A DNA stretch of 36,715 nucleotides from Patescibacteria group bacterium (GCA_034659355.1 JAYEHC010000055.1:1-36715); one strand, 5' to 3'. Positions 13,101-27,604 are shown, counted from the stretch's first letter. The notes: a model not told the origin generated them from the letters alone. Program-made: numbers and translations.

Positions 13101-13127
13101 ATTTTAAAACACTAACCAAAAAAAATT
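13101..13127 (+). repeat. Left direct repeat of ATPase cassette 1
   Basis: ATTTTAAAACACTAACCAAAAAAAATT, 26/27 identical to 14710-14736. Confidence 0.7.
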
Positions 13128-13198
13128 AAAAAGAGAACACAAAAAATATTCCTTGGCTTAAAGACGCAAACAAATGCTTTTGATTTTATAATTTGGCG

Positions 13199-13227
13199 TT
13201 GACAAATATGGATTGCTATGCTATTAT
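13199..13227 (+). promoter_or_regulatory. Sigma70-type promoter of ATPase 1
   Basis: TTGACA-17 bp-TATTAT, with extended TG. Confidence 0.7.
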
Positions 13228-13266
13228 AGTAGTAAATATAACCGTTATAAATATTACTATTTGTTT

Positions 13267-14709
13267 ATGAAGTTCTATAACAGAGAAAAAGAAATAAAAA
13301 TAATCAATGAAATTGTAAAGAAAAGCAAAAAAAGCGGACAGTTGATTGTGTTGCAGGGAAAGAGAAGAGTTGGCAAGACAGCTTTAATTCTTCATACTTT
13401 TAAAAAACAGAATTTCCTTTATTTTTTTGTTAGCAAGAAAACAGAGAAAGAATTACTGGATGATTTTAGAGAAGAAATCAGCAAAAAATTAGATCTGCCG
13501 TATTTAGGCGAATTTAAAAGTTTAAAGCATCTATTGGAATTTTTGTTTGATTATAGCAAGAAAAATAATTTAATTGTTGTTTTTGACGAGTTTCAAAATT
13601 TTAAAATAATCAATCCTTCTCTTTTTTCGGACTTGCAGAAATTTTGGGACTTAAATAAAGACAAAAGCAAGATTGCCATATTCTGCATTGGTTCAATGTT
13701 CACTCTGATCAAAAAAATTTTTACTTCTTCAAAGGAGCCGTTATACAACAGAGCTAATAAAATCATAGAACTTAAACCTTTTGATTTAAAAACCCAGCAG
13801 ACTGTTTTAAAAGATTTTAAATTATTGTCCCCCAAGAATTTTCTAGTTTTCTATTCGCTTTTTAACGGAATGCCGAAATATTTTGAATTGATAGAAGATA
13901 ATGATTTAAGAGGCAAGGATATAAAGCAAATTATTAAAAAGTTGTTTTGCGAAGAAGACGCCTATTTAATCAAAGAAGGCAAAAATATTTTAATTGAAGA
14001 ATTCGGCAGGTCTTATGAGAAATACTTTTCAGTTTTAACGGCTATTGCTCTGGGAAAAACAACTAAAAACGAGATATATAATTATACTGGCATAAATATA
14101 AATTCTTTGGGGGTTTTGCTAAAAACGCTGGAGGATTTTTATGAAATCGTAGAAAGAAAGATTCCTGTTTTAGAAAAAAAGGCAAGTTCCAAATTAAGTT
14201 CGTATAAAATCAAAGATGAATTTCTATCTTTTTGGTTCCGCTATATTTACAAAAAAAATTATTTGATAGAAATAAAAAATTGGCAAGCGCTGTTTAATTA
14301 TATTGATAAAGATCTGGATAATTATTTGGGATTTAAGTTTGAAAATTTAGTCAGAGATTATTTGATAGAACAAAATAATAGCAAAAATAATATTTTTGAT
14401 TTTGAGCAAATCGGCTCTTTCTGGAAAAGACCTGATTTATCCGGCGATAATAAGGAGATAGATATCGTAGCGGTTAGTAAAGAAAGTAAAACAGCGCTGA
14501 TTGGCGAATGTAAATTGAATTTTAGTAAAGTGAATCAAAACTTGGTTGATAATTTAATTAGAAAAAGCAAGTTTGTTTCTAAGCTGAAAAATTATAAAAA
14601 AGTTTTTTATATTTTTACCGTTAAAGAATTGCCGAAAGAAAAAAAGAAAATTCTGGCGAAAAATGATTTTAAGTTTTTGTCGTTGGAGAAAATAATAAAG
14701 AAATTATAA
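13267..14709 (+). CDS. Archaeal-type AAA ATPase with wHTH and C-terminal PD-(D/E)xK domain (ATPase_2/DUF234-like)
   Basis: MKFYNREKE start, Walker A GKRRVGKT, Walker B VVFDEFQ, DEFLSFWFRYI, EIDIVA...IGECK. ATG 13267 preferred over TTG 13213. Confidence 0.88.
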   Translation: MKFYNREKEIKIINEIVKKSKKSGQLIVLQGKRRVGKTALILHTFKKQNFLYFFVSKKTEKELLDDFREEISKKLDLPYLGEFKSLKHLLEFLFDYSKKNNLIVVFDEFQNFKIINPSLFSDLQKFWDLNKDKSKIAIFCIGSMFTLIKKIFTSSKEPLYNRANKIIELKPFDLKTQQTVLKDFKLLSPKNFLVFYSLFNGMPKYFELIEDNDLRGKDIKQIIKKLFCEEDAYLIKEGKNILIEEFGRSYEKYFSVLTAIALGKTTKNEIYNYTGININSLGVLLKTLEDFYEIVERKIPVLEKKASSKLSSYKIKDEFLSFWFRYIYKKNYLIEIKNWQALFNYIDKDLDNYLGFKFENLVRDYLIEQNNSKNNIFDFEQIGSFWKRPDLSGDNKEIDIVAVSKESKTALIGECKLNFSKVNQNLVDNLIRKSKFVSKLKNYKKVFYIFTVKELPKEKKKILAKNDFKFLSLEKIIKKL

Positions 14710-14736
14710 ATTTTAAAAAACTAACCAAAAAAAATT
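14710..14736 (+). repeat. Right direct repeat of ATPase cassette 1
   Basis: Starts on the first base after the TAA stop (14707-14709). Confidence 0.7.
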
Positions 14737-14739
14737 TTG

Positions 14740-14889
14740 CGGGAACCAGTTTATAACTGGTTTCCAATATTTCCCAAGCGAATAAAACTATCAAAATATT
14801 TTCCCTGTCTTAAAAACGCAAAACGATAAAATAAAATTGTTGAAATTTAGAAACAAAAGGAACTGTTTACAAAACAGTTCCCGCGAGGA
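14740..14889 (+). repeat. Repeat family C copy 2
   Basis: 94% identical to 11561-11710. A degenerate partial unit also lies at about 15026-15070. Confidence 0.9.
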
Positions 14890-15096
14890 TGTCTTATGTC
14901 TTCTTTTGCAATCAAAGTGGCATTTTGTCAAGAAAAGAACATCTCAAAGAATTATTTAATGACACAATTGAAAAATAATTTTTAAAATTAAAATAGAGTT
15001 GTTTTACATTTCAATACTCTTACAAAAACTGGTTTGCAATCAGTTCCTAATATCTTCCAAGCAAACAAAATTATTTAATTTTTAACAACCAAAAAA

Positions 15097-17490
15097 ATGA
15101 AAAACAGAACACAAAAAAACATCCTCTGGTTTGAGGAAGTAACCAATAAAGATGTTAATCTTGTTGGCGGGAAAAATGCGTCACTAGGGGAAATGTATCA
15201 AAAATTAACTAAGAAGAAAGTAAACATTCCAAATGGGTTTGCTTTGACAGCGCGCGCTTATCGGCAGTTTATGAAAGAGTCGGGACTGATGAATGAAATT
15301 AAAGAAATTTTAAGTGACCTTGATACGCACAATATCAGAAATCTTTCTGAAAGAGGAGAAAAAGTCAGACAGGCGATTATGTCTGCAAAGTTTCCTGAAC
15401 ATTTAAGTGATGAAATTGCTAAAGCTTACAAGGAAATGGAAAAGATGTATGGGAAAAATGTTGATACAGCGGTAAGATCAAGCGCAACGGCGGAGGATTT
15501 ACCGGACGCTTCTTTCGCGGGACAGCAGGATACCTATTTAAATATTAAAGGAATTCACAATGTTGTTTATGCTACTCATCAGTGTATTGCTTCGCTTTTT
15601 ACAAATCGCGCTATTTCATATCGTGAAGACAAGGGATTTGATCATTTTACAATTGCACTTTCAGTTGGCATTCAAAAAATGGTTCGCAGTGATCAGGCAG
15701 TTAGTGGGGTGATGTTTTCTATCGATACGGAGTCTGGATTTCGTGATGCAGTCTTGATAAATGCTGCTTATGGACTTGGAGAAAATATTGTTCAGGGGAA
15801 AGTTACACCTGATGAATTTTATGTTTTTCAACCAACACTTAAAAAAGGATTTAAGCCGATTATAGAAAAAACTCTTGGTTCAAAAGCTTTTCGCTTAATT
15901 TATAGCACAGAAGGAAAATCACCTATCAAAAATATCGCAGTTTCAAAAGAAGATAGAAAGAAATTTTGTATTACGAACGCAGAGATTATAAAACTTGCAG
16001 AGTGGGCAACAATTATTGAAGAACATTATAAGAGACCAATGGATATGGAATGGGCAAAAGATGGGGTGACGGGAAAATTGTTTATTGTTCAGGCTCGTCC
16101 AGAAACAGCGCAAAGTGTGCGGGATGTAAATATTTTAGAAGAATATATTTTAAGAAAAAAAAGCAGGATTCTTTGTTCAGGCGCGAGTGTAGGCTATAAA
16201 ATCGGTAAAGGAAAAGTTAATCTTATTAAAGATGTAAGTGGTATTGAAGATTTTAAAAAAGGAGAAGTCTTAGTGACAGAGATGACCGATCCTGACTGGG
16301 AGCCGATTATGAAAATTGCTTCAGCAATTGTCACAAATTCAGGAGGAAGAACTTGTCATGCGGCAATTGTTTCGCGGGAGCTGGGAATTCCGTGTGTTGT
16401 TGGCACAAGGATTTGCACAGAAGTTATTAAAAACGGAAAGGATGTGACTGTAAGTTGCGCAGAGGGCGAGGAAGGATATGTCTACGAAGGATTACTTGAT
16501 TTTGAAGTCAAGAAAACAAATATTGGTAAGATCAAAAAGCCGAAAGTAAAAATAATGATGAATCTTGCCGAACCAGAGCAAGCATTTACACAATCGTTTA
16601 TTCCAAATGACGGAGTGGGTTTAGCAAGAGAGGAGTTTATTATAAACAATACAATAAAAGTTCATCCATTAGCATTAATGGCTCTGGATAAGAAAATAAA
16701 AGGTGTTGTAATTGATAGGCAAACAGTTAGTAAGATACATCATATTACTGCTGGTTATAAAACTAAAAATGATTTCTTTATTGATAAGTTGGCGCAAGGG
16801 ATTGGAAAATTGGGAGCTGCTTTTTATCCAAAAGATGTTATTGTAAGATTTTCTGATTTCAAAAGTAATGAGTATGCTAACTTGATTGGTGGGAAATATT
16901 TTGAGCCGAGCGAAGAAAATCCAATGATTGGTTGGCGAGGCGCTTCAAGATACTATGACGATAAGTATAGGGAGGCGTTCAAAATGGAATGTGAAGCGAT
17001 TAAAAAAGTTCGTGAGGAATTCGGGTTGACGAATGTTATTGTGATGGTACCATTTTGTCGAACAGTAGAAGAAGGTAAAAAAGTTTTAGCGGTAATGAAA
17101 GAAGCGGGACTTGAAAGAGGAAAGAATAAATTGCGAGTCTATGTAATGGCAGAAATTCCAGCAAATATTCTTTTAGTTGATGAGTTTGCTAAGATTTTTG
17201 ATGGTTTCTCAATTGGTAGTAATGATCTAACTCAGTTAACTCTTGGAATTGACAGGGATAATGGAAATTTATCTCATATTGCCAATGAGAAAAATGAGGC
17301 AGTAAAAATATTAATTAGACAACTCATCAAAGGTGCTCATAAAAGAAAAAGAAAAGTTGGTATTTGCGGACAAGCGCCATCAGACTTTCCTGACTTTGCG
17401 GAGTTTGTTGTTAAAGAAGGAATTGACAGTATTTCTTTAACATCTGATACGGTTTTGAAGACGATGATTTATTTGGGGAAGAAACGGTAG
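15097..17490 (+). CDS. ppsA: Phosphoenolpyruvate synthase
   Basis: VGGKNASLGEM, AVRSSATAED, GGRTCHAAIVSRE (phospho-His), DGFSIGSNDLTQ. Confidence 0.98.
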   Translation: MKNRTQKNILWFEEVTNKDVNLVGGKNASLGEMYQKLTKKKVNIPNGFALTARAYRQFMKESGLMNEIKEILSDLDTHNIRNLSERGEKVRQAIMSAKFPEHLSDEIAKAYKEMEKMYGKNVDTAVRSSATAEDLPDASFAGQQDTYLNIKGIHNVVYATHQCIASLFTNRAISYREDKGFDHFTIALSVGIQKMVRSDQAVSGVMFSIDTESGFRDAVLINAAYGLGENIVQGKVTPDEFYVFQPTLKKGFKPIIEKTLGSKAFRLIYSTEGKSPIKNIAVSKEDRKKFCITNAEIIKLAEWATIIEEHYKRPMDMEWAKDGVTGKLFIVQARPETAQSVRDVNILEEYILRKKSRILCSGASVGYKIGKGKVNLIKDVSGIEDFKKGEVLVTEMTDPDWEPIMKIASAIVTNSGGRTCHAAIVSRELGIPCVVGTRICTEVIKNGKDVTVSCAEGEEGYVYEGLLDFEVKKTNIGKIKKPKVKIMMNLAEPEQAFTQSFIPNDGVGLAREEFIINNTIKVHPLALMALDKKIKGVVIDRQTVSKIHHITAGYKTKNDFFIDKLAQGIGKLGAAFYPKDVIVRFSDFKSNEYANLIGGKYFEPSEENPMIGWRGASRYYDDKYREAFKMECEAIKKVREEFGLTNVIVMVPFCRTVEEGKKVLAVMKEAGLERGKNKLRVYVMAEIPANILLVDEFAKIFDGFSIGSNDLTQLTLGIDRDNGNLSHIANEKNEAVKILIRQLIKGAHKRKRKVGICGQAPSDFPDFAEFVVKEGIDSISLTSDTVLKTMIYLGKKR

Positions 17491-17547
17491 ATATTGGATA
17501 TTAAATATTAGGATATTGGAGCGAGGGCTTCATCCCGAAAAAATATT

Positions 17548-17580
17548 GTTGGCTCCATAGTCCTGTAGGGCTGTGGAGCC
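17548..17580 (+). repeat. REP-like hairpin D, left boundary of cassette 1
   Basis: GTTGGCTCCATAGTCCTGTAGGGCTGTGGAGCC. Confidence 0.8.
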
Positions 17581-17620
17581 GAAGTGTGAGAATGTAAAAT
17601 ATCATTAATCTGGATTATCT

Positions 17621-17911
17621 ATGAATGAGCTCATAACAATACTCGGTACTGTTTTTTCAGGAATATCAATAATATTATTTTGTGTTGTTCTTAAAATTAT
17701 TTTTGTGGATTTGCCAAAATACGAAAAACAAATAAATAAATTATACAAAGAGAAAGAAGAAAAAATAAAAAAAGAAAGAAGAAGTACAAAATTAACTATG
17801 CATATTGAAGGAGCTATAGAAAATATAGAGAAAGAATATAATCCTAAAATTAAGGAGTTGGAGAGAAAGAGAAGATTTCTTTTAGATAAAATACCGTTTT
17901 TAAGAAAATAA
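17621..17911 (+). CDS. Small single-TM coiled-coil protein (paralog of 19490..19762)
   Basis: N-terminal hydrophobic helix; shares EKQINKLxKEKxEKI and LExKRRFLLDKIPFLxK with its paralog. Confidence 0.8.
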   Translation: MNELITILGTVFSGISIILFCVVLKIIFVDLPKYEKQINKLYKEKEEKIKKERRSTKLTMHIEGAIENIEKEYNPKIKELERKRRFLLDKIPFLRK

Positions 17912-18004
17912 GAAACGGGTTATTATATCTAAAGCCCCGTCAAAGTTTTCAATAAGGACTCTGACGAGGCGGAAAAAATTAAAGAATAAAAATTCTCGCA
18001 TTAA

Positions 18005-18037
18005 GATTCCACAGCCCTGCGGGACTATGGAACCAGC
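18005..18037 (-). repeat. REP-like hairpin D, right boundary (inverted) of cassette 1
   Basis: Reverse complement is GCTGGTTCCATAGTCCCGCAGGGCTGTGGAATC. Confidence 0.8.
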
Positions 18038-18066
18038 GATATATTGATTTTTCCTAAAAACAAAAT

Positions 18067-18115
18067 TGGACAATTTTGGTAGTCCGTTGACAGAATTGTC
18101 CAGATGGTGTATATT
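18067..18115 (+). promoter_or_regulatory. Promoter of ATPase 2 with overlapping inverted-repeat operator
   Basis: TTGACA (18087)-17 bp-TATATT (18110). TGGACAATT (18067-75) / AATTGTCCA (18094-102) flank the -35. Confidence 0.65.
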
Positions 18116-18121
18116 GACATT

Positions 18122-19303
18122 ATGATTAAAAGAAATATTACCAAAAAAATATTGGCATATTATAAGCAATATCCAATTATATCATTGACTGGTCCGAGAC
18201 AGTCCGGAAAAACTACATTAGTGAAAAAGATTTTTCCAAAAAAGCCGTATGTTAATCTTGAAGATTTGGAGAATAGAGAATTCGCGCTGAATGATCCGAA
18301 AGGGTTTTTGTCACAATACGAAAACGGCGCGATTATTGACGAAGTTCAAAGAGTTCCTGAGATAATATCGTATCTTCAAGTCACGGTGGACGAGAAAAAG
18401 AAAAATGGTCTGTTCGTTTTAACAGGATCACAGAATTTTCTTCTGATGGAAAGTATTGGGCAATCGCTGGCGGGACGAACGGCAATTTTTAAGTTGTTTC
18501 CTTTTTCTTCGTCTGAATTATTTTCAGCAAAAGCAAAATTCAATAAAACTAAAATAGATGACTTGTTATTTAAAGGATTTTATCCGAAATTGTTTGATAA
18601 GAAAGTTGATACTGTCGGCTACTATACAAATTATATCCAAACTTATGTGGAACGGGATGTGCGCTTGATAAAAAATATTTCCAATTTGAGCATATTCAAA
18701 AAGTTTTTAAATTTGTGCGCCGCAAGAACAGGTCAGCTGTTAAATATTTCCTCATTAGCTGAAGATTGCGGTATAAACCAAAAAACAGCGCAATCTTGGC
18801 TGTCAGTTTTGGAAGCAAGTTTTATTATTTATTTATTGCGCCCGCATTATAAAAATTATAATAAGCGCGTCATCAAGATGCCGAAAATTTATTTTTACGA
18901 TACTGGTCTTTTGTGTTCATTGCTTGGATTAACAGACAAAAAACAGCTTAAAAATCATTATTTAAAAGGAAGTATTTTTGAATCTTTTGTAATTTCAGAA
19001 TTTATTAAATATAAATATAATCAAGGAGCAGAACCAAATGTTTATTTTTGGAGAGACAAAATTGGAAATGAGATTGATCTTCTAATTGAAACGCCAAATA
19101 AAATAATACCAATTGAAATAAAATCAGGGCAGACAATTAATAGTAATTATTTTAAAGGATTGAAATATTATAATAATTTATCGCAAGGCAGCGGCAAAAA
19201 TTCTTATGTTGTCTATGGCGGTAATTTAAAACAGTTAAGAAGCGAAGCGAATGTTTTGGGCTGGGAGTATTTATATAATAATATTGATAAAATATTAAAA
19301 TAA
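18122..19303 (+). CDS. AAA_14 + DUF4143 ATPase/PD-(D/E)xK nuclease-like protein
   Basis: GPRQSGKTT, IIDEVQ, LTGS, KMPKIYFYDTGL, EIDLLI...PIEIKS. Start MIKR preferred because 18104 lies inside the promoter. Confidence 0.92.
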   Translation: MIKRNITKKILAYYKQYPIISLTGPRQSGKTTLVKKIFPKKPYVNLEDLENREFALNDPKGFLSQYENGAIIDEVQRVPEIISYLQVTVDEKKKNGLFVLTGSQNFLLMESIGQSLAGRTAIFKLFPFSSSELFSAKAKFNKTKIDDLLFKGFYPKLFDKKVDTVGYYTNYIQTYVERDVRLIKNISNLSIFKKFLNLCAARTGQLLNISSLAEDCGINQKTAQSWLSVLEASFIIYLLRPHYKNYNKRVIKMPKIYFYDTGLLCSLLGLTDKKQLKNHYLKGSIFESFVISEFIKYKYNQGAEPNVYFWRDKIGNEIDLLIETPNKIIPIEIKSGQTINSNYFKGLKYYNNLSQGSGKNSYVVYGGNLKQLRSEANVLGWEYLYNNIDKILK

Positions 19304-19371
19304 TTAATAGTATTTCTTTAACATCTGATACGGTTTTGAAAACGATGATTTATTTGGGGAAGAATAAGTAG
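19302..19371 (+). repeat. Duplicated 3' end of ppsA (att-like direct repeat)
   Basis: 64/70 identical to 17421-17490. Reads INSISLTSDTVLKTMIYLGKNK* versus ppsA IDSISLTSDTVLKTMIYLGKKR*. Confidence 0.95.
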
Positions 19372-19419
19372 CTTTTTAGGTTGTAGCTTCTTAGCTTTTT
19401 AGGTTGTGGATTTTCTTAG

Positions 19420-19453
19420 GCTGGCTCCATAGTCCCGATAGGGCTGTGGAGCC
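19420..19453 (+). repeat. REP-like hairpin D, left boundary of cassette 2
   Basis: GCTGGCTCCATAGTCCCGATAGGGCTGTGGAGCC. Confidence 0.8.
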
Positions 19454-19489
19454 GTGATGCGAAATGTTAAATATTGATTTAAGTTCTCT

Positions 19490-19762
19490 ATGGATTATTG
19501 TCTCGCTATAATTCTTATTGCTATTCCCGTAACATTGGTTACTGTTGTTATTTTTGTCGAGATTAGTAGAATTGAAAAACAAATAAATAAGTTGCATAAG
19601 GAAAAAAGAGAGAAAATAAGAGATGCAAAAGATCCTCGTAGCAGTTTATGTTATGACATGAGATTTTTAGATAATGAAATAGAGGATTATGACTTGCAAA
19701 TTGAAGGATTAGAGAAAAAAAGAAGATTTCTTTTAGACAAAATACCATTTTTAAAGAAGTAA
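19490..19762 (+). CDS. Small single-TM coiled-coil protein (paralog of 17621..17911)
   Basis: Shared N- and C-terminal motifs, divergent middle. Confidence 0.8.
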   Translation: MDYCLAIILIAIPVTLVTVVIFVEISRIEKQINKLHKEKREKIRDAKDPRSSLCYDMRFLDNEIEDYDLQIEGLEKKRRFLLDKIPFLKK

Positions 19763-19766
19763 AAAT

Positions 19767-20042
19767 ATGTTTGATATAAAAATAGGAATCGAAAAATTTT
19801 TAATACAGTTATTAGCTATAATAAGGAAATCATGGAATGGGAAAGATTTAAAATTTAGAAATAATGCTTGTTGGAAAAAAAATAAAGAAGTGCCATTTTG
19901 CCAAGTATGTTTTGATAATGAAGGGAAACTAAATCCTCTTCAATCTATTGCTGGATTTGATTGGGATTATGAGTGCAAGAATTGTAAAGAACATTTTTAT
20001 GTAAGTAAAAAAGGACCAAAAGTAGAAGTTAATCGCAGGTAA
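19767..20042 (+). CDS. Small putative zinc-ribbon protein
   Basis: CQVC...CKNC pairs; starts 4 bp after the preceding stop. Confidence 0.7.
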   Translation: MFDIKIGIEKFLIQLLAIIRKSWNGKDLKFRNNACWKKNKEVPFCQVCFDNEGKLNPLQSIAGFDWDYECKNCKEHFYVSKKGPKVEVNRR

Positions 20043-20070
20043 TTTATTAAATATAGAAAGGGATAAAATT

Positions 20071-20309: not shown

Positions 20310-20324
20310 ATTAACCGATATTAA

Positions 20325-20442
20325 AACACACCCCATCCGCTTCGCGAATTACCCTTCTCAAGAGGGGAATAAATTAAAATCGTTTCGCGAAGCGAACAAA
20401 TTCCCCTCTTGAGAGGGGTAATCCCGCAGGGATGGGGTGTGT
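20325..20442. repeat. Repeat family E inverted pair upstream of DUF559
   Basis: AACACACCCCATCC...CCCTTCTCAAGAGGGGA (20325-20368) and an inverted copy at 20400-20442. Confidence 0.85.
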
Positions 20443-20454
20443 AAAAACAATACT

Positions 20455-20820
20455 ATGCGCAAAATAATCCCCTATAACCCAAAACTAAAACAGCTCGCCA
20501 AAAACCTAAGAAATAATAGTACTTTATCAGAAGTATTGTTATGGCAACATCTAAAAAATAAAAAAATGAAAGGATATGATTTTCATCGCCAAAAACCAAT
20601 TGGAAATTATATCGTTGATTTTTTCTGTAATGATCTAATGCTGGCAATTGAAATTGATGGTATCAGCCACAATGAAAGAATTGATAAAGACATAGAAAGA
20701 CAAAGGCAAATAGAAAGCTTCGGAATAAGTTTTTTGAGATTTGATGATCTTGATATAAAAAAGAATATTGTGGGAGTGATTGTGGCGATTGAGGGTTGGA
20801 TTAATAGAGATGGTTTATAA
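20455..20820 (+). CDS. DUF559 (Vsr-like) endonuclease domain protein
   Basis: AKNLRNNSTLSEVLLW, FHRQKPIGNYIVDF, LAIEIDGISH, LRF. Confidence 0.92.
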   Translation: MRKIIPYNPKLKQLAKNLRNNSTLSEVLLWQHLKNKKMKGYDFHRQKPIGNYIVDFFCNDLMLAIEIDGISHNERIDKDIERQRQIESFGISFLRFDDLDIKKNIVGVIVAIEGWINRDGL

Positions 20821-20829
20821 TACATTTAT

Positions 20830-20873
20830 AACACACCCCATCCGCTTCGCGAATTACCCCTCTCAAGAGGGGA
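20830..20873 (+). repeat. Repeat family E direct copy downstream of DUF559
   Basis: 43/44 identical to 20325-20368. Confidence 0.9.
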
Positions 20874-20929
20874 GTTTATTACATTACTCGTTGCGGAAAC
20901 TATTTTCTAAACAACTCCCAATATTCTCC

Positions 20930-21067
20930 CGCGGGAACGGATTTGTAATCCGTTTCTGATGTTTTGAAAAATAACAAGGCTTATGTTGTCGGTAAAATCT
21001 TATGATAAGAACAAAGACTGTTGATATTTAAAAACAAAGGGAACTGTTTACAAAACAGTTCCCGCGA
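20930..21067 (+). repeat. Repeat family C copy 3 (divergent spacer)
   Basis: CGCGGGAACGGATTTGTAATCCGTTTC ... GGGAACTGTTTACAAAACAGTTCCCGCG. Confidence 0.8.
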
Positions 21068-21130
21068 AAAAAATATAACTAACACGGTAAAATATCAAAC
21101 ACAAAAGTTTAATCCGATATTTTAATAACT

Positions 21131-22111: not shown

Positions 22112-22163
22112 AAAAAGCAGGACCGTATTTTTTCACAGTCCCAATTATTTTGTCTACTCTTTG

Positions 22164-22298
22164 TCACTTTCCATCGTCTAACCATGGAAAGTTTTTTCTT
22201 CTTTTAAGAGCATTCCTTATACAGTCCCATTTTTTGGGACAGTAAGAGCAATGAGGACTGTCCTCGTATGTGTTCTCATGTGTTTGTTTTTTTGTCAT
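22164..22298 (-). CDS. Putative 44-aa Cys-rich peptide
   Basis: MTKKQTHENTYEDSPHCSYCPKKWDCIRNALKRRKNFPWLDDGK*, with a strong SD (AAGGGAGGAG) 5 bp upstream. Confidence 0.4.
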   Translation of the reverse strand: MTKKQTHENTYEDSPHCSYCPKKWDCIRNALKRRKNFPWLDDGK

Positions 22299-22319
22299 CT
22301 TATCTCCTCCCTTGTTGAG

Positions 22320-22360
22320 GCATAAAAAAATACCCCGATTATCGGGATATTTTTTTATGC
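22320..22360. terminator. Bidirectional intrinsic-terminator-like hairpin
   Basis: GCATAAAAAAATACCCCGA-TTA-TCGGGATATTTTTTTATGC. Confidence 0.6.
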
Positions 22361-22627
22361 TTTAACGGGAAAAAAATGAATTTGAGAATGAAATGAAAAA
22401 TAAAAAACAAAGTTGTTAGCTGACAGGATAGTTGTATATGATTTAAAACCATTTATAATTCTTAGTAGCCATAATTTATGAATCTCTATGAATACTGCTT
22501 ATTCAATTGTTTCTATTTTTATTATTCCCTATTTTGAAAACAATGTCAATAGCACCTGTGCTTTTTTCTTGTTTTATTTAAAAATTGTGATAGAATGAAA
22601 GTAAGAAAGATTTTTAATAATAAGAAT

Positions 22628-22978
22628 ATGCTTGCAAAGCTAATCATCCAAATTTTAACAAACGCAGTCGCGATTTATGTTGCGGCTGAAGTAGTTTCCG
22701 GATTTACTTTAATGGATGATAGTTTTATGACCCTTGTGATGGCGGGGTTTATTCTCGGAATGATAAATTTTTTCGTAAGACCAATTTTAAAACTCATTTC
22801 CGCTCCGTTAATCCTTTTTACGCTCGGGCTCTTTACAATTGTGATAAATGTTGCTATGCTTCTTTTGCTGGATTACTTTATGGCTGATTTGGAAATTAAC
22901 GGTTTTTGGGCGGCGTTCTGGGCGATGATTGTAATCAGCGCGGTAAATATCTTCATCGGCGCATTTTCAAAAAAGTAG
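22628..22978 (+). CDS. YvlD / phage holin_4_2 family membrane protein
   Basis: INFFVRPILKLISAPLILFTLGLFTIVIN signature; four TM segments. Start could be 22595. Confidence 0.88.
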   Translation: MLAKLIIQILTNAVAIYVAAEVVSGFTLMDDSFMTLVMAGFILGMINFFVRPILKLISAPLILFTLGLFTIVINVAMLLLLDYFMADLEINGFWAAFWAMIVISAVNIFIGAFSKK

Positions 22979-22991
22979 CAAGCTTTTTATA

Positions 22992-23146
22992 TAGGCTCTG
23001 CTGACTTTCATCTATTTTTTATAGAAAGAGATAAACTTAAATATGCCTTAAAAAATAATTTAGCTTGTTTTAACTAATCCTGCCCGGAAATCCCCCTAGC
23101 CCCCTTTTACAAAGGGGGAACAATTGGAGAAAATCAGCAGAGCCTA
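22992..23146 (+). mobile_element. MITE family A copy 2
   Basis: TAGGCTCTGCTGA...TCAGCAGAGCCTA; internal CCCCCTAGCCCCCTTTTACAAAGGGGG hairpin. Confidence 0.85.
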
Positions 23147-23177
23147 TTTTCTACTTTCTAACTTACTACTTAATCTT

Positions 23178-23405
23178 ATGGACAAAACACTTGGCGCAAT
23201 TCAAATAATAATTTCGGTATTGTTAATTATTTCAATTCTTCTCCAAAACAGGGGCGCGGGACTTAGCGAGACATTTGGAGGCGGAGGCGGAGGCGGAAAT
23301 GTTTATCAGACAAAAAGAGGATTTGATAAATTTCTCTTTGCGGCGACAATTATTCTTGCAATACTATTTTTGGGTACGGCATTTTTTAGTTTTACGCAAC
23401 GGTAA
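23178..23405 (+). CDS. secG: Preprotein translocase subunit SecG
   Basis: ILLQNRGAGLSETFGG...TKRGFDKFL, two TM segments. The upstream extension in the ORF track derives from the MITE. Confidence 0.9.
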   Translation: MDKTLGAIQIIISVLLIISILLQNRGAGLSETFGGGGGGGNVYQTKRGFDKFLFAATIILAILFLGTAFFSFTQR

Positions 23406-23454
23406 AAACAATGCGATTAAGATTAGGAGAGCAGTCCTGTTTTAGTTGTAAAAC

Positions 23455-23629
23455 AGACCTCTTGCGTAATTACTTCCTACTGCAATTTTCATATTTTGGT
23501 CAAATTCCCCAAAAATTTTGTAGACACGCGATTAATCGCGTCTCTATTTAGGCTAACTTCAAAAATTATTTGAAAAATTTGCCTCAAAATATGAAAATCT
23601 TGTAACGAAATTAATTACGCAAGAGGTCT
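23455..23629 (+). mobile_element. MITE family B copy 1 (~175 bp)
   Basis: TIR AGACCTCTTGCGTAATTA...TAATTACGCAAGAGGTCT; central GTAGACACGCGATTAATCGCGTCTCTA palindrome. Confidence 0.88.
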
Positions 23630-23650
23630 ATTAAAAAATTAAACAATTTT

Positions 23651-25327
23651 CTGAAAAAATTAAAGAAAATTTTTCTTGCACTGGGAAAAAAGGGGCGTTG
23701 GATTATTTATATCTCGCTGTTTTTAATTATCAGCAGTTGTCTCTTTCTTGGTATTTCCCATTATTTCAAAAACACAAAAAAAGTTCCCGCCTATGAAGGA
23801 GAATATACAGAGGGAATGATTGGACAGCCAAGATTTATAAATCCGATTTTGTGTCAAACAAGCGATATTGACTCAGATTTGTCAGCGCTTGTTTATTCCG
23901 GATTATTGAAATTAAATCATCAAGGAGAGCTTGTTAACGACTTGGCGGAGAGCTATGAAATAAGCGAGGACAGACTAACTTATACTTTTCATATTAAAAA
24001 AGATGTTGTTTGGCATGACTGGGAAAAATTGTCTGCCGATGATATAGTTTTTACGATTAAAACAATTCAAAACGATGATTTTTATAGCCCTCTTCAGGCA
24101 AGCTGGAAAGGCGTTAAAGTTGAAAAAGTTGACGATCACACGGTTAGGTTTATTCTCAGAAATATCTACTCTCCGTTTTTAAATAATCTAACGGTAGGGA
24201 TACTTCCTAAGCATTTATGGGAAGCGTTTGGAGCGAATAATTTTCACCAGGCGGAATGCAACTTAATGCCGAAAGGAACCGGTCCCTATAAAATTGAACA
24301 ATTTGTCAAAGATAAAGACGGAAAAATAAGTTCCATTGAATTTTTAGCGAACGAAGATTATTATTCAAAAAAGCCCTTTATTAAAAAATTTACTTTTAAA
24401 TTTTTCAAAGACGAAAATGCAATGATTTCAGCTTTCAATCGTAAAGAATTAAAGGGAGTAAATTACCTTTCTCCTGAAAACAAAAAAAGGATTATTGATT
24501 TGGAGTCAGCGAATATTTATCGGCTCAATATGCCAAGATATTTTGCCGTGTTTTTTAATCAAACAAAAAACAAAGCGCTTTCAGATAAAACAGTGCGAAC
24601 CGCTCTTGCTTACGCTGTAAATAAAAATAAATTAGTGGAAGACATTCTTTATGGCGAAGGAAAACCAGTGGACACTCCTATTCCAGAGGGCATTCTTGGA
24701 TATAATTCAAATATCAAAATATACGATTACGCGCTGGAGCACGCTAATAATATTCTTGAAGCGGATGGTTGGGTTGATTCTGATAATGACGGCATAAGAG
24801 AAAAAGATGATATTAAAATTGAGTTCACCATAGTTTCGACCGACTGGCCGGAACTTTCAAAAACGGCAATATTGCTTCAGGAAATGTGGAGAGAAATAGG
24901 AGCCGATGTAAAAATAGAAAACATTCAAGAAAGCGAGCTTGAAAATGACTATATAAAACCGCGTGAATACGACACGCTTTTGTTCGGAGAGATTTTAAAT
25001 TACGATCCCGACCCATTCGCTTTTTGGCATTCTTCGCAGAAAAAAGAGTATGGATTGAATCTAGCTTTGTATGACAACGCGGAAGTTGATGAATTACTGG
25101 AAGAAGCAAGGCAAGAAACGGACCAAGCCATACGGGAAGAAAAATATAGAGAATTCCAAAAAATTATAGCAGAAGATGTCCCAGCCGTTTTTTTGTACAG
25201 CCCAAATTATTTGTATGTACACAGCAAGTCGGTGCAAGGAGTTGAATTAAGAAACATTGTTATTCCTTCAAACAGATTTAACGGTGTTGAAGAATGGTAT
25301 GTGAAGACGAAGAGGGTGTGGAAATAG
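23651..25327 (+). CDS. Peptide ABC transporter substrate-binding protein (SBP family 5, OppA-like) with N-terminal TM
   Basis: GQPRFINP, LAESYEISEDRLTYTF, SADDIVFT, GTGPY, VRTALAYAVN. The frame stays open upstream of ATG 23816 through a TM helix; start uncertain (CTG 23651 proposed). Confidence 0.85.
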   Translation: MKKLKKIFLALGKKGRWIIYISLFLIISSCLFLGISHYFKNTKKVPAYEGEYTEGMIGQPRFINPILCQTSDIDSDLSALVYSGLLKLNHQGELVNDLAESYEISEDRLTYTFHIKKDVVWHDWEKLSADDIVFTIKTIQNDDFYSPLQASWKGVKVEKVDDHTVRFILRNIYSPFLNNLTVGILPKHLWEAFGANNFHQAECNLMPKGTGPYKIEQFVKDKDGKISSIEFLANEDYYSKKPFIKKFTFKFFKDENAMISAFNRKELKGVNYLSPENKKRIIDLESANIYRLNMPRYFAVFFNQTKNKALSDKTVRTALAYAVNKNKLVEDILYGEGKPVDTPIPEGILGYNSNIKIYDYALEHANNILEADGWVDSDNDGIREKDDIKIEFTIVSTDWPELSKTAILLQEMWREIGADVKIENIQESELENDYIKPREYDTLLFGEILNYDPDPFAFWHSSQKKEYGLNLALYDNAEVDELLEEARQETDQAIREEKYREFQKIIAEDVPAVFLYSPNYLYVHSKSVQGVELRNIVIPSNRFNGVEEWYVKTKRVWK

Positions 25328-25332
25328 ATTGT

Positions 25333-25372
25333 TTAGCTTCTTAGCTTCTTAGCTTTTTAGATTTTTAGCTTT
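25333..25372 (+). repeat. Octamer tandem repeat TTAGCTTC/T
   Basis: About five units; similar tract at 19369-19420. Confidence 0.7.
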
Positions 25373-25401
25373 CCGTTTTACAATTTATTAATTTATTCAA
25401 A

Positions 25402-26169
25402 ATGTTCTACAAAAACTTTATTAAAAACCAAACCCCCGATATTCGCCATCTTTTTGATATGAGAGAAGTTGTTTTTGATCAAGAATGGTTGGAAAAACAA
25501 GAAGATATTGAATTGTATTATATGTATCGCGGAATGGGATTATCAGCGGAAGATAAAAAGAAAATTGAAATAGCGCGCTTGCGATATGATATTACAATTA
25601 TTCCGCCATTGATGCTAGGCAAAGAATTTAATAAAACTGCCGGACATTATCATTGCGAAGCGGCAACAGGAATTTCTTATCCGGAGATCTATGAAGTTTT
25701 ATTCGGTGAAGCGTATTATCTAATGCAACATTCAATTGAAAATAACTCTATTAAAGACGCTTATTTTGTTCGCGCTGTCGCTGGCGACAAAATAATTATT
25801 CCGCCAAATTATGGACATTTTACAATCAACGCTAGCGAGAAAGATTTAGTGATGGCAAATTGGGTCTGCCTTGATTGTATTTCGGATTACAGCGAAGTAA
25901 AGAAGAAGCGAGGCGCGTGTTATTTTGCTCTTGAAAATTTTACTAAAAATCCCCCTAGCTCCCTTTTACAAAAGGGAAACATAAAATGGCTTCCAAATAA
26001 AAACTATCGGGAGATTTCTAAGTTGAGAGAATTAAACCCGACTAATTTTTCTGAATTTGGATTAGAAAAAAATAAAGGAATGTATAAACTGGTTAATGAT
26101 TTGAACAAATTGGATTTTTTAGTCCGGCCAGAGGAATATAAAGATTTATGGGAGAGGGTTTTGGGATAA
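25402..26169 (+). CDS. Cupin-type (archaeal-like) glucose-6-phosphate isomerase family protein
   Basis: LRYDITIIPP, KTAGHYH, YPEIYEV, PPNYGHFTIN cupin metal motifs. Confidence 0.88.
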   Translation: MFYKNFIKNQTPDIRHLFDMREVVFDQEWLEKQEDIELYYMYRGMGLSAEDKKKIEIARLRYDITIIPPLMLGKEFNKTAGHYHCEAATGISYPEIYEVLFGEAYYLMQHSIENNSIKDAYFVRAVAGDKIIIPPNYGHFTINASEKDLVMANWVCLDCISDYSEVKKKRGACYFALENFTKNPPSSLLQKGNIKWLPNKNYREISKLRELNPTNFSEFGLEKNKGMYKLVNDLNKLDFLVRPEEYKDLWERVLG

Positions 26170-26316
26170 AAAAAGTATTTACTTTTTTGGCAAATATACG
26201 AAAATAGTAAAGAAAAAGATGGAAACGACAGAAAAATTAAAAATCTTGACAAACCATAGTTTTTTAAATCAAGTAATAAAAAAATGCGGTTAAATTTATA
26301 AAAAGGTAATTTTTAC

Positions 26317-26345
26317 TTGACAAGTCCAAAAATATCTGATAATAT
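26317..26345 (+). promoter_or_regulatory. Promoter of ATPase 3
   Basis: TTGACA-17 bp-TAATAT. Confidence 0.6.
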
Positions 26346-26373
26346 TGATTTAGCAATCCAATATTATCTATTT

Positions 26374-27573
26374 ATGTACCAACGAACAATTTTGTCAAAA
26401 TTAATTCCTTTCCTGGAAAAAGATCAGATTATAATGATAACTGGCGCGCGACAGGTTGGTAAAACAACTTTGCTTTTTCTGTTAAAAAAATATTTGGAAG
26501 ACAAGCAAGAAAAATGCTTTTATCTTAATCTGGAAAATCCAAGTTATAAAGACGCTCTTAATAAACATCCGGATAATATTTTTGAAATTATTCCTAAAGC
26601 GATCGCAAGAGGGGAAAGGCAATATCTTTTTTTGGACGAAGTTCAATATCTGGATAATCCCAGCAATTTTTTGAAATATCATTTTGACGAAAACAGGAAG
26701 AATTTAAAAATTATTACCAGCGGATCTTCAGCGTTTTATCTTGATCATAAATTTAAAGACAGCTTAGCGGGGCGAAAGTTTATTTTTGAATTGTTTGGCT
26801 TGAATTTTTATGAATTTTTAGATTTTAAAAAAGAAGTTGAAATCAAACAATTTCATCAGAAAAAAGTACCGAGTATTTATCACAGCAAGTTAATAAATTT
26901 ATGGGAGGAATATATTAGGTTCGGCTCTTATCCGGAAGTCGTTTTAAATGACGACATAAAAATTAAAAAAACCATTATTGAAAGTTTGGCTCTTTCTTAT
27001 GTTAAAAAAGATATTTACGAAGCAAACATTAAGGAATCGGAAAAATATTTTTATATTCTGAAAATATTGGCTGATCAAACCGGACAATTAGTGAATGCCA
27101 ATCAAATTGCCAACGCCATTAATTTGTCCGTCAAGACAGTGGAAAATTATTTGCAAGTAATGCAAAAATCATACCATCTTTCTTTAATCAAACCGTTTTT
27201 TAAAAATATAAAAAAAGAATTGACTAAAATGCCCAAAGTCTATTTTTATGATTTGGGTTTGAGGAATTATTTGTTGAATAATTTTGATTTAATTAATAAC
27301 AGATTAGATCGAGGACAAGTTTTGGAAAATATAATTTTTTTGAAATTTTTGAATTCTCACAAAAGAGACGGAATTAATTTTTGGAGAACGCAAGCGAAAA
27401 ATGAAGTTGATTTTATCGTGAACAGAGAGCGGGCATTTGAGGTAAAATTCAGTTCTAAGAATTTTCAAGAATCAAAATACGCTAAGTTTAAGAAGCAATA
27501 TCCAGAAATGAATTTGCGGTTTGTTTCTTATGACAATGTGGTTGAGGAATTGAAAAACGGAGAATTTATTTAA
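26374..27573 (+). CDS. AAA_14 + DUF4143 ATPase/PD-(D/E)xK nuclease-like protein
   Basis: GARQVGKTT, LFLDEVQ, SGSS, KMPKVYFYDLGLRN, EVDFIV...FEVK. Start MYQR preferred. Confidence 0.92.
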   Translation: MYQRTILSKLIPFLEKDQIIMITGARQVGKTTLLFLLKKYLEDKQEKCFYLNLENPSYKDALNKHPDNIFEIIPKAIARGERQYLFLDEVQYLDNPSNFLKYHFDENRKNLKIITSGSSAFYLDHKFKDSLAGRKFIFELFGLNFYEFLDFKKEVEIKQFHQKKVPSIYHSKLINLWEEYIRFGSYPEVVLNDDIKIKKTIIESLALSYVKKDIYEANIKESEKYFYILKILADQTGQLVNANQIANAINLSVKTVENYLQVMQKSYHLSLIKPFFKNIKKELTKMPKVYFYDLGLRNYLLNNFDLINNRLDRGQVLENIIFLKFLNSHKRDGINFWRTQAKNEVDFIVNRERAFEVKFSSKNFQESKYAKFKKQYPEMNLRFVSYDNVVEELKNGEFI

Positions 27574-27574
27574 G

Positions 27575-27604
27575 TTGTGGGAGAGGATTTTGGGATAAAA
27601 AAAG
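27575..27604 (+). repeat. Duplicated 3' end of the GPI gene (att-like direct repeat)
   Basis: 28/30 identical to 26146-26175; LWERILG* versus LWERVLG*. Confidence 0.9.

What the first reader, a model, noticed from the sequence alone, without database searches (positions are those of the whole stretch)
13101..27604. Candidate new mobile system: integrase-less AAA-ATPase/PD-(D/E)xK cassettes, each bracketed by a direct repeat that restarts at the ATPase stop codon
Seen: all three intact ATPase-nuclease genes (13267, 18122, 26374) share one layout: [repeat] - spacer or cargo - own TTGACA-17-(-10) promoter - ATPase - [repeat]. The right repeat starts within about 2 bp of the stop codon. The repeats are 26/27, 64/70 and 28/30 identical, unrelated to each other, and two are 3' ends of housekeeping genes. 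Known: integrative elements regenerate the target 3' end and leave the displaced end on the far side; AAA_14-DUF4143 and DUF234 proteins end in a PD-(D/E)xK fold of unclear function. Inference: these genes move as units whose junction is fixed just after their own stop, e.g. through a circular intermediate or nuclease-primed recombination. No integrase or transposase is present in this window.
Basis: partly seen in the sequence, partly recalled or inferred. Interest (0 to 1): 0.9.

Follow-up and report, generated by a model that had tools for sequence, protein, structure and literature searches.

The report
Single-gene ATPase-nuclease cassettes with target duplications
Three ATPase-nuclease genes in this small bacterial genome are self-contained insertions that duplicated the end of the neighbouring gene when they landed, a pattern already described for restriction enzyme genes and now seen for a very common but untested "defence candidate" gene family.

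Summary
All three intact ATPase genes have a strong own promoter, and each is bracketed by a locally unique direct repeat whose right copy starts 0-4 nt from the stop. The repeats are duplicated target: PEPS 3' end, PEPS 5' leader and GPI 3' end.

They are real insertions, not misassembly:
- An independent contig bridges one junction.
- The PEPS arrangement recurs in two other genomes.
- A same-genus relative has an empty GPI site.
- ATP2 orthologues sit in other contexts.

The enrichment is real. After dropping the window genes, 24 of 131 ATPase genes (18%) have such brackets against 53 of 1083 other ORFs (4.9%).

The interpretation needs trimming:
- Stop-anchoring is not special to ATPases, and other cargo (Fic, GAPDH, an HD hydrolase) shows the same signature.
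- Repeat lengths run from 23 to about 480 nt.
- Paralogues within a genome are highly diverged.
- I saw no circle junction.
- Two larger repeats in the region belong to dispersed families.

The pattern matches "insertion with long target duplication", known for restriction-modification genes. The proteins are PADLOC candidates PDC-S01 and PDC-S27. Nothing here shows that the ATPase-nuclease drives its own insertion.

The parts
11470..11556 (+). N-terminal remnant of a fourth AAA_14-type ATPase gene (Walker A, ..GARQVGKTT), cut off exactly where the 155-nt repeat starts
   Evidence: (family D14); read from the sequence
11556..11718 (+). Left copy of the 155-nt repeat R1, a composite of two dispersed repeat modules; includes the hairpin GGAACTGTTT..AAACAGTTCC
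   Evidence: 10-20 partial copies on other contigs
11685..12012 (+). Segment that lies directly upstream of PEPS in a close relative; here it precedes Fic
   Evidence: 95% to L021 3193-3530; joint 12002->15087 in runs X2-X4
12013..13083 (+). Fic/DOC-domain gene inserted at the PEPS start; non-ATPase cargo with the same leader duplication
13089..13153 (+). Displaced copy of the PEPS leader plus its first ~10 codons (ATG changed to ATT); left repeat of cassette 1
   Evidence: (D17, D19, D20)
13154..14709 (+). Cassette 1: promoter (13199-13227) plus DUF234 ATPase-nuclease gene 13267-14709 (PADLOC PDC-S27)
14701..14736 (+). Right repeat of cassette 1 (leader copy), starting at the stop codon
14735..14897 (+). 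Right copy of repeat R1 (94% to the left copy)
15097..17490 (+). PEP synthase (PEPS), the target gene at both of its ends
17421..17927 (+). Left copy of the duplicated block: PEPS 3' end, hairpin, small membrane ORF 17621-17911
   Evidence: (D4, D5, D15)
18066..19303 (+). Cassette 2 core: operator palindrome TGGACAATT..AATTGTCCA around the -35 box, promoter at 18087, AAA_14/DUF4143 gene 18122-19303 (PDC-S01)
19302..19778 (+). Right (displaced) copy of the block: PEPS 3' remnant starting inside the stop codon, hairpin, paralogous small ORF 19490-19762
   Evidence: Logan contig 18011-19338 with 0 differences
26149..26177 (+). Left repeat of cassette 3: current 3' end of the cupin-type GPI gene (25402-26169) plus 8 nt
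26178..27573 (+). Cassette 3: spacer, promoter at 26317, operator palindrome GATAATATTG..CAATATTATC, AAA_14/DUF4143 gene 26374-27573 (PDC-S01)
27572..27607 (+). Right (displaced) GPI 3' end; 35/36 identical to the GPI end at the empty site of the same-genus relative

Best explanation
What they are. The three genes are intact, self-promoted and probably self-regulated single-gene cassettes. Each has 55-200 nt of promoter and operator, one ORF, and 0-15 nt after the stop. The encoded protein is an Orc/Cdc6/STAND-like P-loop NTPase with a winged helix and a C-terminal PD-(D/E)xK nuclease. These are PADLOC candidates PDC-S01 (AAA_14-DUF4143) and PDC-S27 (DUF234).

How they got here. Each landed at the very end of a neighbouring gene (PEPS 3', PEPS 5', GPI 3') by 'insertion with long target duplication'. 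This is the integrase-less mode described for restriction-modification genes. A stretch of target is present on both sides, so the hit gene stays whole and a dead copy of its end lies beyond the cassette.

How they spread (inferred). The cassettes turn over between genomes rather than transposing within one. They spread and are lost by homologous recombination, either through the flanks or between the two repeat copies. Most likely the host's own DNA uptake and recombination does the joining. The ATPases are over-represented because they are the commonest selfish or defence-type cargo.

What is shown and what is not. Insertion, target duplication, enrichment and occurrence in other contexts are shown. 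The joining mechanism and any role of the encoded nuclease are inferred.
For: Real insertions:
- The same-genus relative has the empty site SBP-GPI-tRNA-Leu-RNase J. Its single GPI end is 35/36 identical to the displaced copy here.
- In the 16 relatives' PEPS loci I fetched, 13 show no ATPase gene downstream of PEPS.
- A different-genus relative has ATP3 at the same site with the same left junction.

Not misassembly:
- An independent contig of the likely source run covers 18011-19338 with 0 differences.
- The junction of ATP2 stop to PEPS remnant recurs in two other assemblies, at 97% and about 82% DNA identity.

Discrete units:
- ATP2 orthologues at 86, 83, 80 and 73% aa identity are not next to an ATP2-type PEPS junction.
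- Their homology to the window starts at 18066-18071. It ends 4 nt after the stop in one relative and 29-81 nt before the stop in the other three.

Enrichment:
- 24/131 ATPase genes against 53/1083 other ORFs have a repeat between the 100 nt after the stop and the 3 kb upstream. This is at score >=20, Fisher p=3.5e-7, after dropping the 3 window genes, 2 ATP2 orthologues and one duplicate locus.
- 17 of the 24 brackets enclose little more than the gene.
- Clean independent cases exist: a 116-nt repeat with only 2 copies in its genome, and repeats that are coding ends of neighbouring genes.

Host mechanism rather than self-catalysis:
- The same signature surrounds Fic and a gene at the PEPS start in another relative.
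- It also surrounds GAPDH, an HD hydrolase and DUF4238.

Protein and family:
- PADLOC E-values are 2e-105, 9e-93 and 2e-57.
- The fold model has pLDDT 87.8. Its best PDB matches are archaeal AAA+ ATPases, STAND proteins, Cdc6/Orc1 and Can2-type nucleases.

Precedent: long, variable target duplications without mobility genes, some overlapping a gene's 3' end, mostly in naturally competent species (PMC2853133, passages).
Against: - In this genome the other 5 testable ATPase genes have no bracket of their own (scores 11-16, background median 11). Two of them sit inside a 3-gene bracket.
- Outside this genome I did not filter out dispersed repeats. Several hits in the broad set are simple-sequence-like.
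- Controls in the relatives are neighbours of ATPases, and kin are not independent.
- ORFs were called crudely as the longest non-overlapping ORFs of at least 100 aa.
- The ~480-nt, 77-89% duplication at PEPS is too long and too diverged for a simple target duplication. It differs from the 97-nt one in the closest relative.
- The displaced GPI copy is 35/36 identical to a relative whose GPI gene is only 79% identical. That hints at a constrained site or recent exchange.
- No competence genes were looked for in this genome, and no mechanism is demonstrated.
Confidence: 0.6

Rival explanations
1. Self-mobilising element. The ATPase-nuclease cuts a target at a variable distance, as translocating NTP-dependent nucleases do, and so drives integration or excision of its own gene. 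This would happen through a small circle or nuclease-primed recombination, with one end set at its stop codon.
For: - Brackets are strongly enriched around this family, and most enclose only the gene.
- No recombinase lies nearby.
- Homology between orthologues in different contexts ends within a few nt of the stop in the clearest pairs.
- Copy number is patchy, 0-27 per ~1-Mb genome across 26 genomes.
- The authors who described long target duplication for RM genes suspected a role for double-strand breakage (PMC2853133, Discussion passage).
- Recombination between repeat copies is suggested by the swapped and mosaic PEPS ends in three genomes.
Against: - Non-nuclease cargo has the same signature.
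- Control brackets start just as close to the stop.
- Repeat lengths of 23 to ~480 nt fit no fixed mechanism.
- No closely similar paralogues occur within a genome: the closest pair is 67% DNA identity in this genome, and nothing exceeds 72% among the copies tested in the 27-copy genome.
- I noticed no shared terminal motifs while reading the cassette ends; no formal search was run.
- No convincing backward or circle joint appeared in the contigs laid (tables truncated).
Confidence: 0.17
2. The repeats were not made at insertion. They are the footprint of Campbell-type single crossovers. A circle carrying the cassette plus a copy of the neighbour's end, looped out from another genome by recombination between its repeats, recombines with the homologous end in the recipient through RecA.
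For: - Repeat length and identity vary widely (26/27, 60/63, ~77% over ~480 nt).
- The two copies are of different allelic types and are swapped between genomes: G012 and G001 have L=b, R=a, while this genome has L=a and a mosaic R.
- The closest relative has a 97-nt repeat and this genome a ~480-nt one around the same cassette and the same right junction.
- An empty site occurs in the nearest relative and a filled one in a more distant relative.
Against: - It explains spread between relatives but not the first arrival at a new site.
- No circle junction was seen.
- For short repeats (23-31 nt) RecA-type crossover is inefficient (general knowledge, not tested here).
Confidence: 0.18
3. Artefact or coincidence. 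The repeats are misassembly of co-occurring strains, chance matches in AT-rich DNA, or copies of dispersed intergenic repeats that happen to flank the genes.
For: - The genome carries a 136-nt family of roughly 100 copies or fragments and other dispersed modules. R1 and the 22988/27961 pair belong to them, and 27 of 590 control genes are 'bracketed', mostly by such repeats.
- A ~93-97% relative co-occurs in the same study's runs.
- The first repeat is A-rich and short.
Against: - The three stop-adjacent repeats are locally unique.
- Background scores are low: median 11, 95th percentile 18, against 24-57 here.
- An independent contig bridges the junction.
- The same junctions appear in two or three other assemblies.
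- The single-copy state occurs at empty sites.
Confidence: 0.03

Closest known systems
Insertion with long target duplication of restriction-modification gene units (Furuta, Abe and Kobayashi 2010, PMC2853133, passages read; it cites an earlier Helicobacter pylori comparison that I did not read)
   Same: - Nuclease-encoding accessory genes inserted without any transposase or integrase.
- Flanked by long direct repeats of variable length (45 to over 400 bp there, 23 to ~480 nt here) that are single-copy at the empty site.
- Some repeats overlap the 3' end of the upstream gene.
- Repeats flank these genes more often than average genes.
- A single Type IV nuclease gene is reported to have inserted this way.
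   Different: - The cargo here is one NTPase-nuclease fusion gene with its own promoter and operator, and no methyltransferase.
- The host is a ~1-Mb genome whose closest named relatives are Patescibacteria (record titles).
- The same signature also surrounds metabolic and Fic genes here.
- The mechanism is unknown in both cases.
PADLOC phage-defence candidates PDC-S01 and PDC-S27
   Same: ATP2 and ATP3 match PDC-S01 models at E 2e-105 and 9e-93, and the DUF234 protein matches PDC-S27 at 2e-57, over nearly full length. The papers describe both as ATPase domains fused to PD-(D/E)xK nucleases, found by being embedded inside other defence systems (10.1101/2024.01.29.577857 and PMC12988326, passages).
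   Different: - Defence is not shown. [quoted passage not shown]
- One S01 and one S27 representative tested in E. coli B against T4, T5 and T7 were not among the four systems that protected (10.1101/2024.09.26.614923, passage).
- The passages I read do not describe these genes as mobile cassettes with target duplications.
Integrative islands that insert into the 3' end of a gene and regenerate it (tyrosine-recombinase att sites)
   Same: The target gene's end is regenerated, the displaced end is left on the far side, and direct repeats sit at both junctions.
   Different: - No recombinase gene lies in or next to the cassettes.
- The repeats are imperfect and vary greatly in length.
- 5' ends of downstream genes are duplicated as often as 3' ends.
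Free-standing homing endonuclease genes (recalled from general knowledge, no paper read)
   Same: Single nuclease genes lodged between conserved genes, patchy among relatives, and spread through flanking homology.
   Different: Homing leaves no target duplication. The proteins here are large NTPase-nuclease fusions, not the classical homing families.

Membership tests
Insertion with long target duplication (as defined for RM units in PMC2853133) | Inserted segment is absent from a related genome that is similar on both flanks (an empty site) | tested here: met
   ATP3: the same-genus relative has SBP-GPI-tRNA-Leu-RNase J without the cassette. ATP2: 13 of the 16 relatives' PEPS loci fetched show no ATPase gene downstream of PEPS, and two align continuously from the PEPS end into the hairpin.
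Insertion with long target duplication (as defined for RM units in PMC2853133) | Flanking direct repeat longer than 30 bp that is single-copy at the empty site and unique in the genome | tested here: met
   PEPS repeat of 63-97 nt (up to ~480 nt) and GPI repeat of 27-36 nt here, ~47 nt in a relative. They are unique in the genome and single at empty sites. The first cassette's 27-36 nt leader repeat is at the threshold.
Insertion with long target duplication (as defined for RM units in PMC2853133) | No transposase, integrase or phage genes in or beside the insert | tested here: met
   No such Pfam domain in the 20 window proteins scanned. The genome has a Xer-like recombinase and an IS200-like gene on other contigs.
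Insertion with long target duplication (as defined for RM units in PMC2853133) | Insert contains both restriction and modification genes | tested here: not met
   The cassettes hold a single NTPase-nuclease gene. So this is the same mode of insertion with a different cargo class.
PADLOC PDC-S01 / Pfam AAA_14 + DUF4143 | Full-length match to the family models; intact P-loop and PD-(D/E)xK motifs | tested here: met
   G29, K30, D73 and E317 are invariant, and E74 and D319 nearly invariant, in 32 homologues. Motifs were also read from the translations.
PADLOC PDC-S27 / Pfam DUF234 | Full-length match to the family models | tested here: met
   PDC-S27 at E 2e-57 over residues 2-478; DUF234 at 1e-22 and ATPase_2 at 1e-16.
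Anti-phage defence system | Protects a host against phage | not testable with these tools
   Candidate status only. One published test of single representatives did not list them among the protective systems.
Autonomous transposable element | Element-encoded recombinase, conserved ends, fixed-length target duplication, multiple near-identical copies | tested here: not met
   No known recombinase domain. Repeat length runs from 23 to ~480 nt. Within-genome paralogues share at most 67-72% DNA identity. Cassette ends were only read by eye.
Integron gene cassette | attC recombination site after a mostly promoterless ORF, in an array next to intI | tested here: not met
   The cassettes carry strong promoters, the repeats are copies of neighbouring genes and unrelated to each other, and there is no integrase.

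The most novel reading that the evidence does not exclude
PDC-S01 and PDC-S27 ATPase-nucleases, counted among the commonest 'defence' genes of prokaryotes, may primarily be autonomous integrase-less selfish elements. In this reading the NTP-driven nuclease makes breaks at a variable distance, and these lead to insertion of its own promoter-to-stop cassette with a long target duplication. The repeats then allow looping out and re-entry. This would explain why these genes are found embedded inside other operons without breaking them.
Probability: 0.15. Interest if true: 0.85.

Novelty: new member of a known kind. Interest (0 to 1): 0.5.

Why it matters
PMC12988326 (passage) reports PDC-S01 as the fourth most common defence-type system across prokaryotes. 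Its function is untested, and it was picked out precisely because it sits embedded in other systems.

About one in five of these genes turns out to be a tight single-gene insertion with a duplicated target. Empty and filled alleles exist, and the same gene occurs in several contexts. This gives a concrete account of how the embedding arises and a cheap way to find fresh insertions. It also gives reason to ask whether these genes are defence, selfish, or both.

The result extends insertion with long target duplication from restriction-modification genes to another nuclease family and to very small genomes. There, the duplication lets a gene land inside the end of an essential gene without damaging it.

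My paper searches for DUF4143, COG1373, PDC-S01, AAA_14 and 'long target duplication' turned up no description of this for these families. The library lacks most subscription journals, and supplements were closed.

Tried and rejected
- **Rfam scan of the window**: only three tRNAs. The repeated hairpin-bearing leaders are not a known RNA family.
- **Sequence search of the PDB** with ATP2 and the DUF234 protein: no hits. The fold search gave only generic AAA+/STAND/Orc and Can2-type nuclease matches, which do not bear on mobility.
- **PADLOC scan of nine non-ATPase genes** that sit inside bracket repeats: 0 of 9 had a convincing defence match. Only DUF559 hit, weakly. The idea that all bracketed cargo is defence-related is dropped.
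- **Misassembly:** rejected.
- **Reads:** only Logan contigs were available, short and broken at repeats, and the tables were truncated. I saw no ATPase-less allele of this strain and no clear circle junction.
  - The backward joint 19628->19287 with 5 extra letters, and the joints at 11878->19422, 23146/23632->2796x and others, have short sides. They lie in dispersed hairpins or repeats, so I do not interpret them.
  - A part without cover is not evidence.
- **The 155-nt and 136-nt repeat pairs as cassette borders:** rejected as specific signals because both belong to dispersed families.
- **Hits set aside in the relatives:** L072 (arrays of dispersed hairpin units) and L103 (upstream copy too weak) are not counted among the clean cases I name, although they remain in the pooled counts. 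L068 (at least a 270-nt repeat reaching a contig start) is ambiguous.
- **History of the PEPS locus:** I could not reconstruct one history for the three genomes from the 97-nt alignment.
- **Not done:** I did not look for competence genes, did not run complex prediction, and did not use the protein-database searches.

Full report
**The locus.** The window is one contig of a 1.05-Mb, 35% GC, 108-contig genome estimated 98.6% complete. The closest named relatives of one of its proteins are records titled Patescibacteria group bacterium and Candidatus Falkowbacteria.

Gene order on the + strand between 11000 and 28400:
- a remnant of an AAA_14 gene (about 11470-11556)
- Fic (12013-13083)
- DUF234 ATPase (13267-14709)
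- PEP synthase (15097-17490)
- a small membrane ORF (17621-17911)
- AAA_14/DUF4143 ATPase 'ATP2' (18122-19303)
- a paralogous small ORF (19490-19762) and a zinc-ribbon-like ORF
- DUF559
- TrpRS
- a holin-like protein and a SecG-like ORF (recalled name)
- a solute-binding protein
- cupin-type GPI (25402-26169)
- AAA_14/DUF4143 ATPase 'ATP3' (26374-27573)
- tRNA-Leu
- RNase J

**The observation.** It is confirmed.
- The three best or near-best sigma-70-like sites in 17.4 kb lie just upstream of the three ATPase genes: 13199 and 18087 at 11 of 12, and 26317 at 10 of 12.
- Each gene is followed at once by a copy of sequence that also lies upstream of its promoter:
  - 13101-13127 / 14710-14736 (26/27)
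  - 17421-17483 / 19302-19364 (60/63; 89% over 75 nt)
  - 26149-26175 / 27578-27604 (26/27)
- These repeats occur nowhere else in the genome.
- Their scores (24-57) exceed the genome-wide background for the same test (median 11, 95th percentile 18).

- The first repeat is a copy of the PEPS leader and start. That sequence is present four times (before Fic, after Fic, after the DUF234 gene, and at PEPS itself).
- The PEPS 3' duplication continues at about 77% through a hairpin and a small ORF, making a block of about 480 nt.
- The region also holds dispersed repeats. One is a 136-nt family with roughly 100 copies or fragments in the genome. The other is a composite 155-nt element.

**Are the cassettes real insertions?** Yes.
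- A contig assembled independently from the likely source run covers 18011-19338 without a difference. It bridges the ATP2 stop into the displaced PEPS copy. Another covers 11847-13225.
- A close relative (PEPS 96%, ATP2 97% aa) has the same ATP2-stop/PEPS-remnant junction. Its duplication is only 97 nt, and there is no small ORF between PEPS and ATP2.
- A same-genus relative (about 82% DNA identity) has the junction too. There a second ATPase gene has replaced the first 166 codons of ATP2.
- In the 16 relatives' PEPS loci I fetched, 13 show no ATPase gene downstream of PEPS. Two align continuously from the PEPS end into the hairpin.
- For ATP3, the same-genus relative has the empty site. GPI is followed by tRNA-Leu and RNase J, and its GPI end is 35/36 identical to the displaced copy at 27572-27607.
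- A relative of another genus has ATP3 (82% aa) at the same site with the same left junction. Its displaced copy is about 47 nt and starts right at the stop.

**Are they units that move?**
- ATP2 orthologues at 86, 83, 80 and 73% aa identity lie in loci without the PEPS junction.
- Their DNA homology to the window begins at 18066-18071. That is where a palindrome (TGGACAATT..AATTGTCCA) embraces the -35 box.
- The homology ends 4 nt after the stop in one relative, and 29-81 nt before it in the other three.
- Other orthologous pairs in different genomes show the same limits, about -60 to -100 and stop +/-15. At 65-85% identity, though, an alignment would tend to stop at gene borders anyway.
- Copy number is patchy, 0 to 27 per genome among 26 genomes of the order.
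- Copies within one genome are far apart. The closest pair in this genome shares 67% DNA identity, and nothing exceeds 72% among the copies tested in the 27-copy genome. So this is turnover between genomes, not bursts of transposition.

For every ORF of at least 100 aa, I aligned the stretch from 10 nt before the end of the stop codon to 100 nt after it against up to 3 kb upstream.

| Set | ATPase genes at score >=20 | Other ORFs at score >=20 |
|---|---|---|
| This genome, all testable ATPases (the three hits are the window genes) | 3 of 8 | 27 of 590 |
| This genome, repeats with at most 2 genomic copies | 3 | about 7 |
| This genome, window ATPases dropped | 0 of 5 | 27 of 590 |
| Relatives' loci, set 1 | 4 of 21 | 4 of 165 |
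| Relatives' loci, set 2 | 6 of 36 | 3 of 48 |
| Named genomes of many phyla | 14 of 69 | 19 of 280 |
| Pooled | 24 of 131 (18.3%) | 53 of 1083 (4.9%), Fisher p 3.5e-7 |

- One of the roughly 7 unique control brackets in this genome is a three-gene cassette holding two further ATPases, bracketed by the first 69 nt of pyrG.
- The last four data rows and the pooled row leave out the 3 window genes, 2 ATP2 orthologues and one duplicate locus.
- 17 of the 24 pooled ATPase brackets enclose little more than the gene.
- Caveats: relatives are not independent. Controls outside this genome are neighbours of ATPases. Dispersed repeats were filtered only in this genome. ORF calling was crude.
- Clean independent cases include:
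  - a 116-nt repeat (96%) present only twice in its genome, around a 1268-nt cassette
  - the 3' end of an aminotransferase-like gene
  - the 3' end of an upstream gene and the 5' ends of downstream genes in two other genomes

**What trims the interpretation.**
- The right repeat starts -2 to +4 nt from the stop in the window. Across all ATPase hits it starts from -7 to +63, and control hits have the same spread.
- The same signature surrounds non-nuclease cargo:
  - Fic here, and a 222-aa gene at the PEPS start in another relative
  - an HD hydrolase, DUF4238 and unknowns
  - marginally, GAPDH (25 nt)
- Repeat lengths range from 23 to about 480 nt, and identities from about 77 to 99%.
- The two PEPS-end copies are of two allelic types that are swapped between genomes. 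The right copy here is a mosaic. This points to recombination between the copies.
- None of this requires the ATPase to act in cis.

**The proteins.**
- PADLOC places ATP2 and ATP3 in PDC-S01 and the DUF234 protein in PDC-S27.
- The ATP2 model (pLDDT 87.8, from 32 homologues) resembles archaeal AAA+ ATPases 2fna and 2qen, STAND proteins and Cdc6/Orc1. Its C-terminal part matches Can2-type PD-(D/E)xK nucleases.
- From the literature I read passages only:
  - Both families are listed as PD-(D/E)xK members, with DUF4143's function given as unknown (PMC3424549).
  - PDC candidates were found by being embedded in other defence systems (10.1101/2024.01.29.577857).
  - One S01 and one S27 representative were tested and are not among the four systems reported to protect (10.1101/2024.09.26.614923).

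**Closest known and verdict.**
- The anatomy matches 'insertion with long target duplication', described for restriction-modification units. Those are nuclease genes with no mobility genes and long, variable direct repeats that are single at the empty site. Some repeats overlap a gene's 3' end, and most cases are in naturally competent species. The authors suspected double-strand breakage (PMC2853133, passages).
- I therefore file the finding as a new member of that kind, not a categorically new system.
- My best reading (0.6) is host-mediated insertion and recombinational turnover of selfish or defence-type single-gene cassettes.
- Self-catalysed mobility remains possible (about 0.15-0.2), and it would be the interesting outcome.
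- Supplements of the papers were closed. Tables there may hold context data on PDC-S01 that I could not see.

Noticed in passing
window 22988-23123, 27961-28096, 31898-32026, 8354-8483 (minus strand), fragment 25947-25981; about 100 further places in the genome: A ~136-nt dispersed repeat with roughly 100 copies or fragments in 1.05 Mb, in both orientations. Some copies have inverted ends (GGCTCTGCT..AGCAGAGCC), and contigs often end in it. One fragment lies inside the GPI ORF, which is 33 nt longer here than in a relative. One contig of run X1 joins 27953->28103, skipping the copy, but its side is only 22 nt. It looks like a miniature mobile element.
   Followed up: partly
window 20321-20881: The DUF559 (Vsr-like nuclease) gene 20437-20820 is bracketed by a 56-nt direct repeat (20321-20376 / 20826-20881). 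The left copy forms a long palindrome with 20395-20452. The repeat family occurs at about 8 loci in the genome.
   Followed up: partly
L061 (a relative's locus) 2360-3583 versus window 25402-26169: At the same site between the solute-binding gene and ATP3, one relative has a PGI-family isomerase (PF00342) where this genome has a cupin-type GPI (PF06560). The two keep the same last ~12 nt and the same junction to the cassette. The cupin GPI was found in only 3 of 24 genomes of the family. This looks like in-place displacement by a non-homologous enzyme of the same function.
   Followed up: partly
L022 (same-genus relative) 7196-8878: A second AAA_14/DUF4143 gene has replaced the first 166 codons of the ATP2 orthologue, leaving the ATP2 3' part and the PEPS remnant in place. 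This is an ATPase cassette inserted into an ATPase cassette.
   Followed up: no
window 11470-11556: Remnant of a fourth ATPase gene (start and Walker A only), ending exactly where the 155-nt repeat begins.
   Followed up: no
window 18066-18103 and 26335-26366; relatives' cassettes: Each cassette has its own pair of direct or inverted repeats around or just after its promoter. In the ATP3 pair the palindrome changes on both arms between this genome and a relative (GATAATATTG..CAATATTATC versus GATAATATTAA..TTAATATTATC). This fits autoregulation by the protein's winged helix.
   Followed up: no
window 17621-17911 and 19490-19762: Two paralogous small membrane proteins (96 and 90 aa) without a Pfam family match above the gathering score, one in each copy of the duplicated block.
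   Followed up: no
G000 contig C6 2799-3797 (L080); G000 contig C74 1680-5778 (L040): GAPDH is followed by a 25-nt copy of the 3' end of the gene upstream of it (marginal score 19). On C74, two ATPase genes plus a 426-aa unknown are bracketed by the first 69 nt of pyrG (68/69). Glycolytic genes in this lineage may also arrive as insertions.
   Followed up: partly
window 19384-19405 and 25334-25371: Short tandem 8-nt units (TAGCTTCT-like) follow the stops of the displaced PEPS end and of the solute-binding gene (family D8).
   Followed up: no
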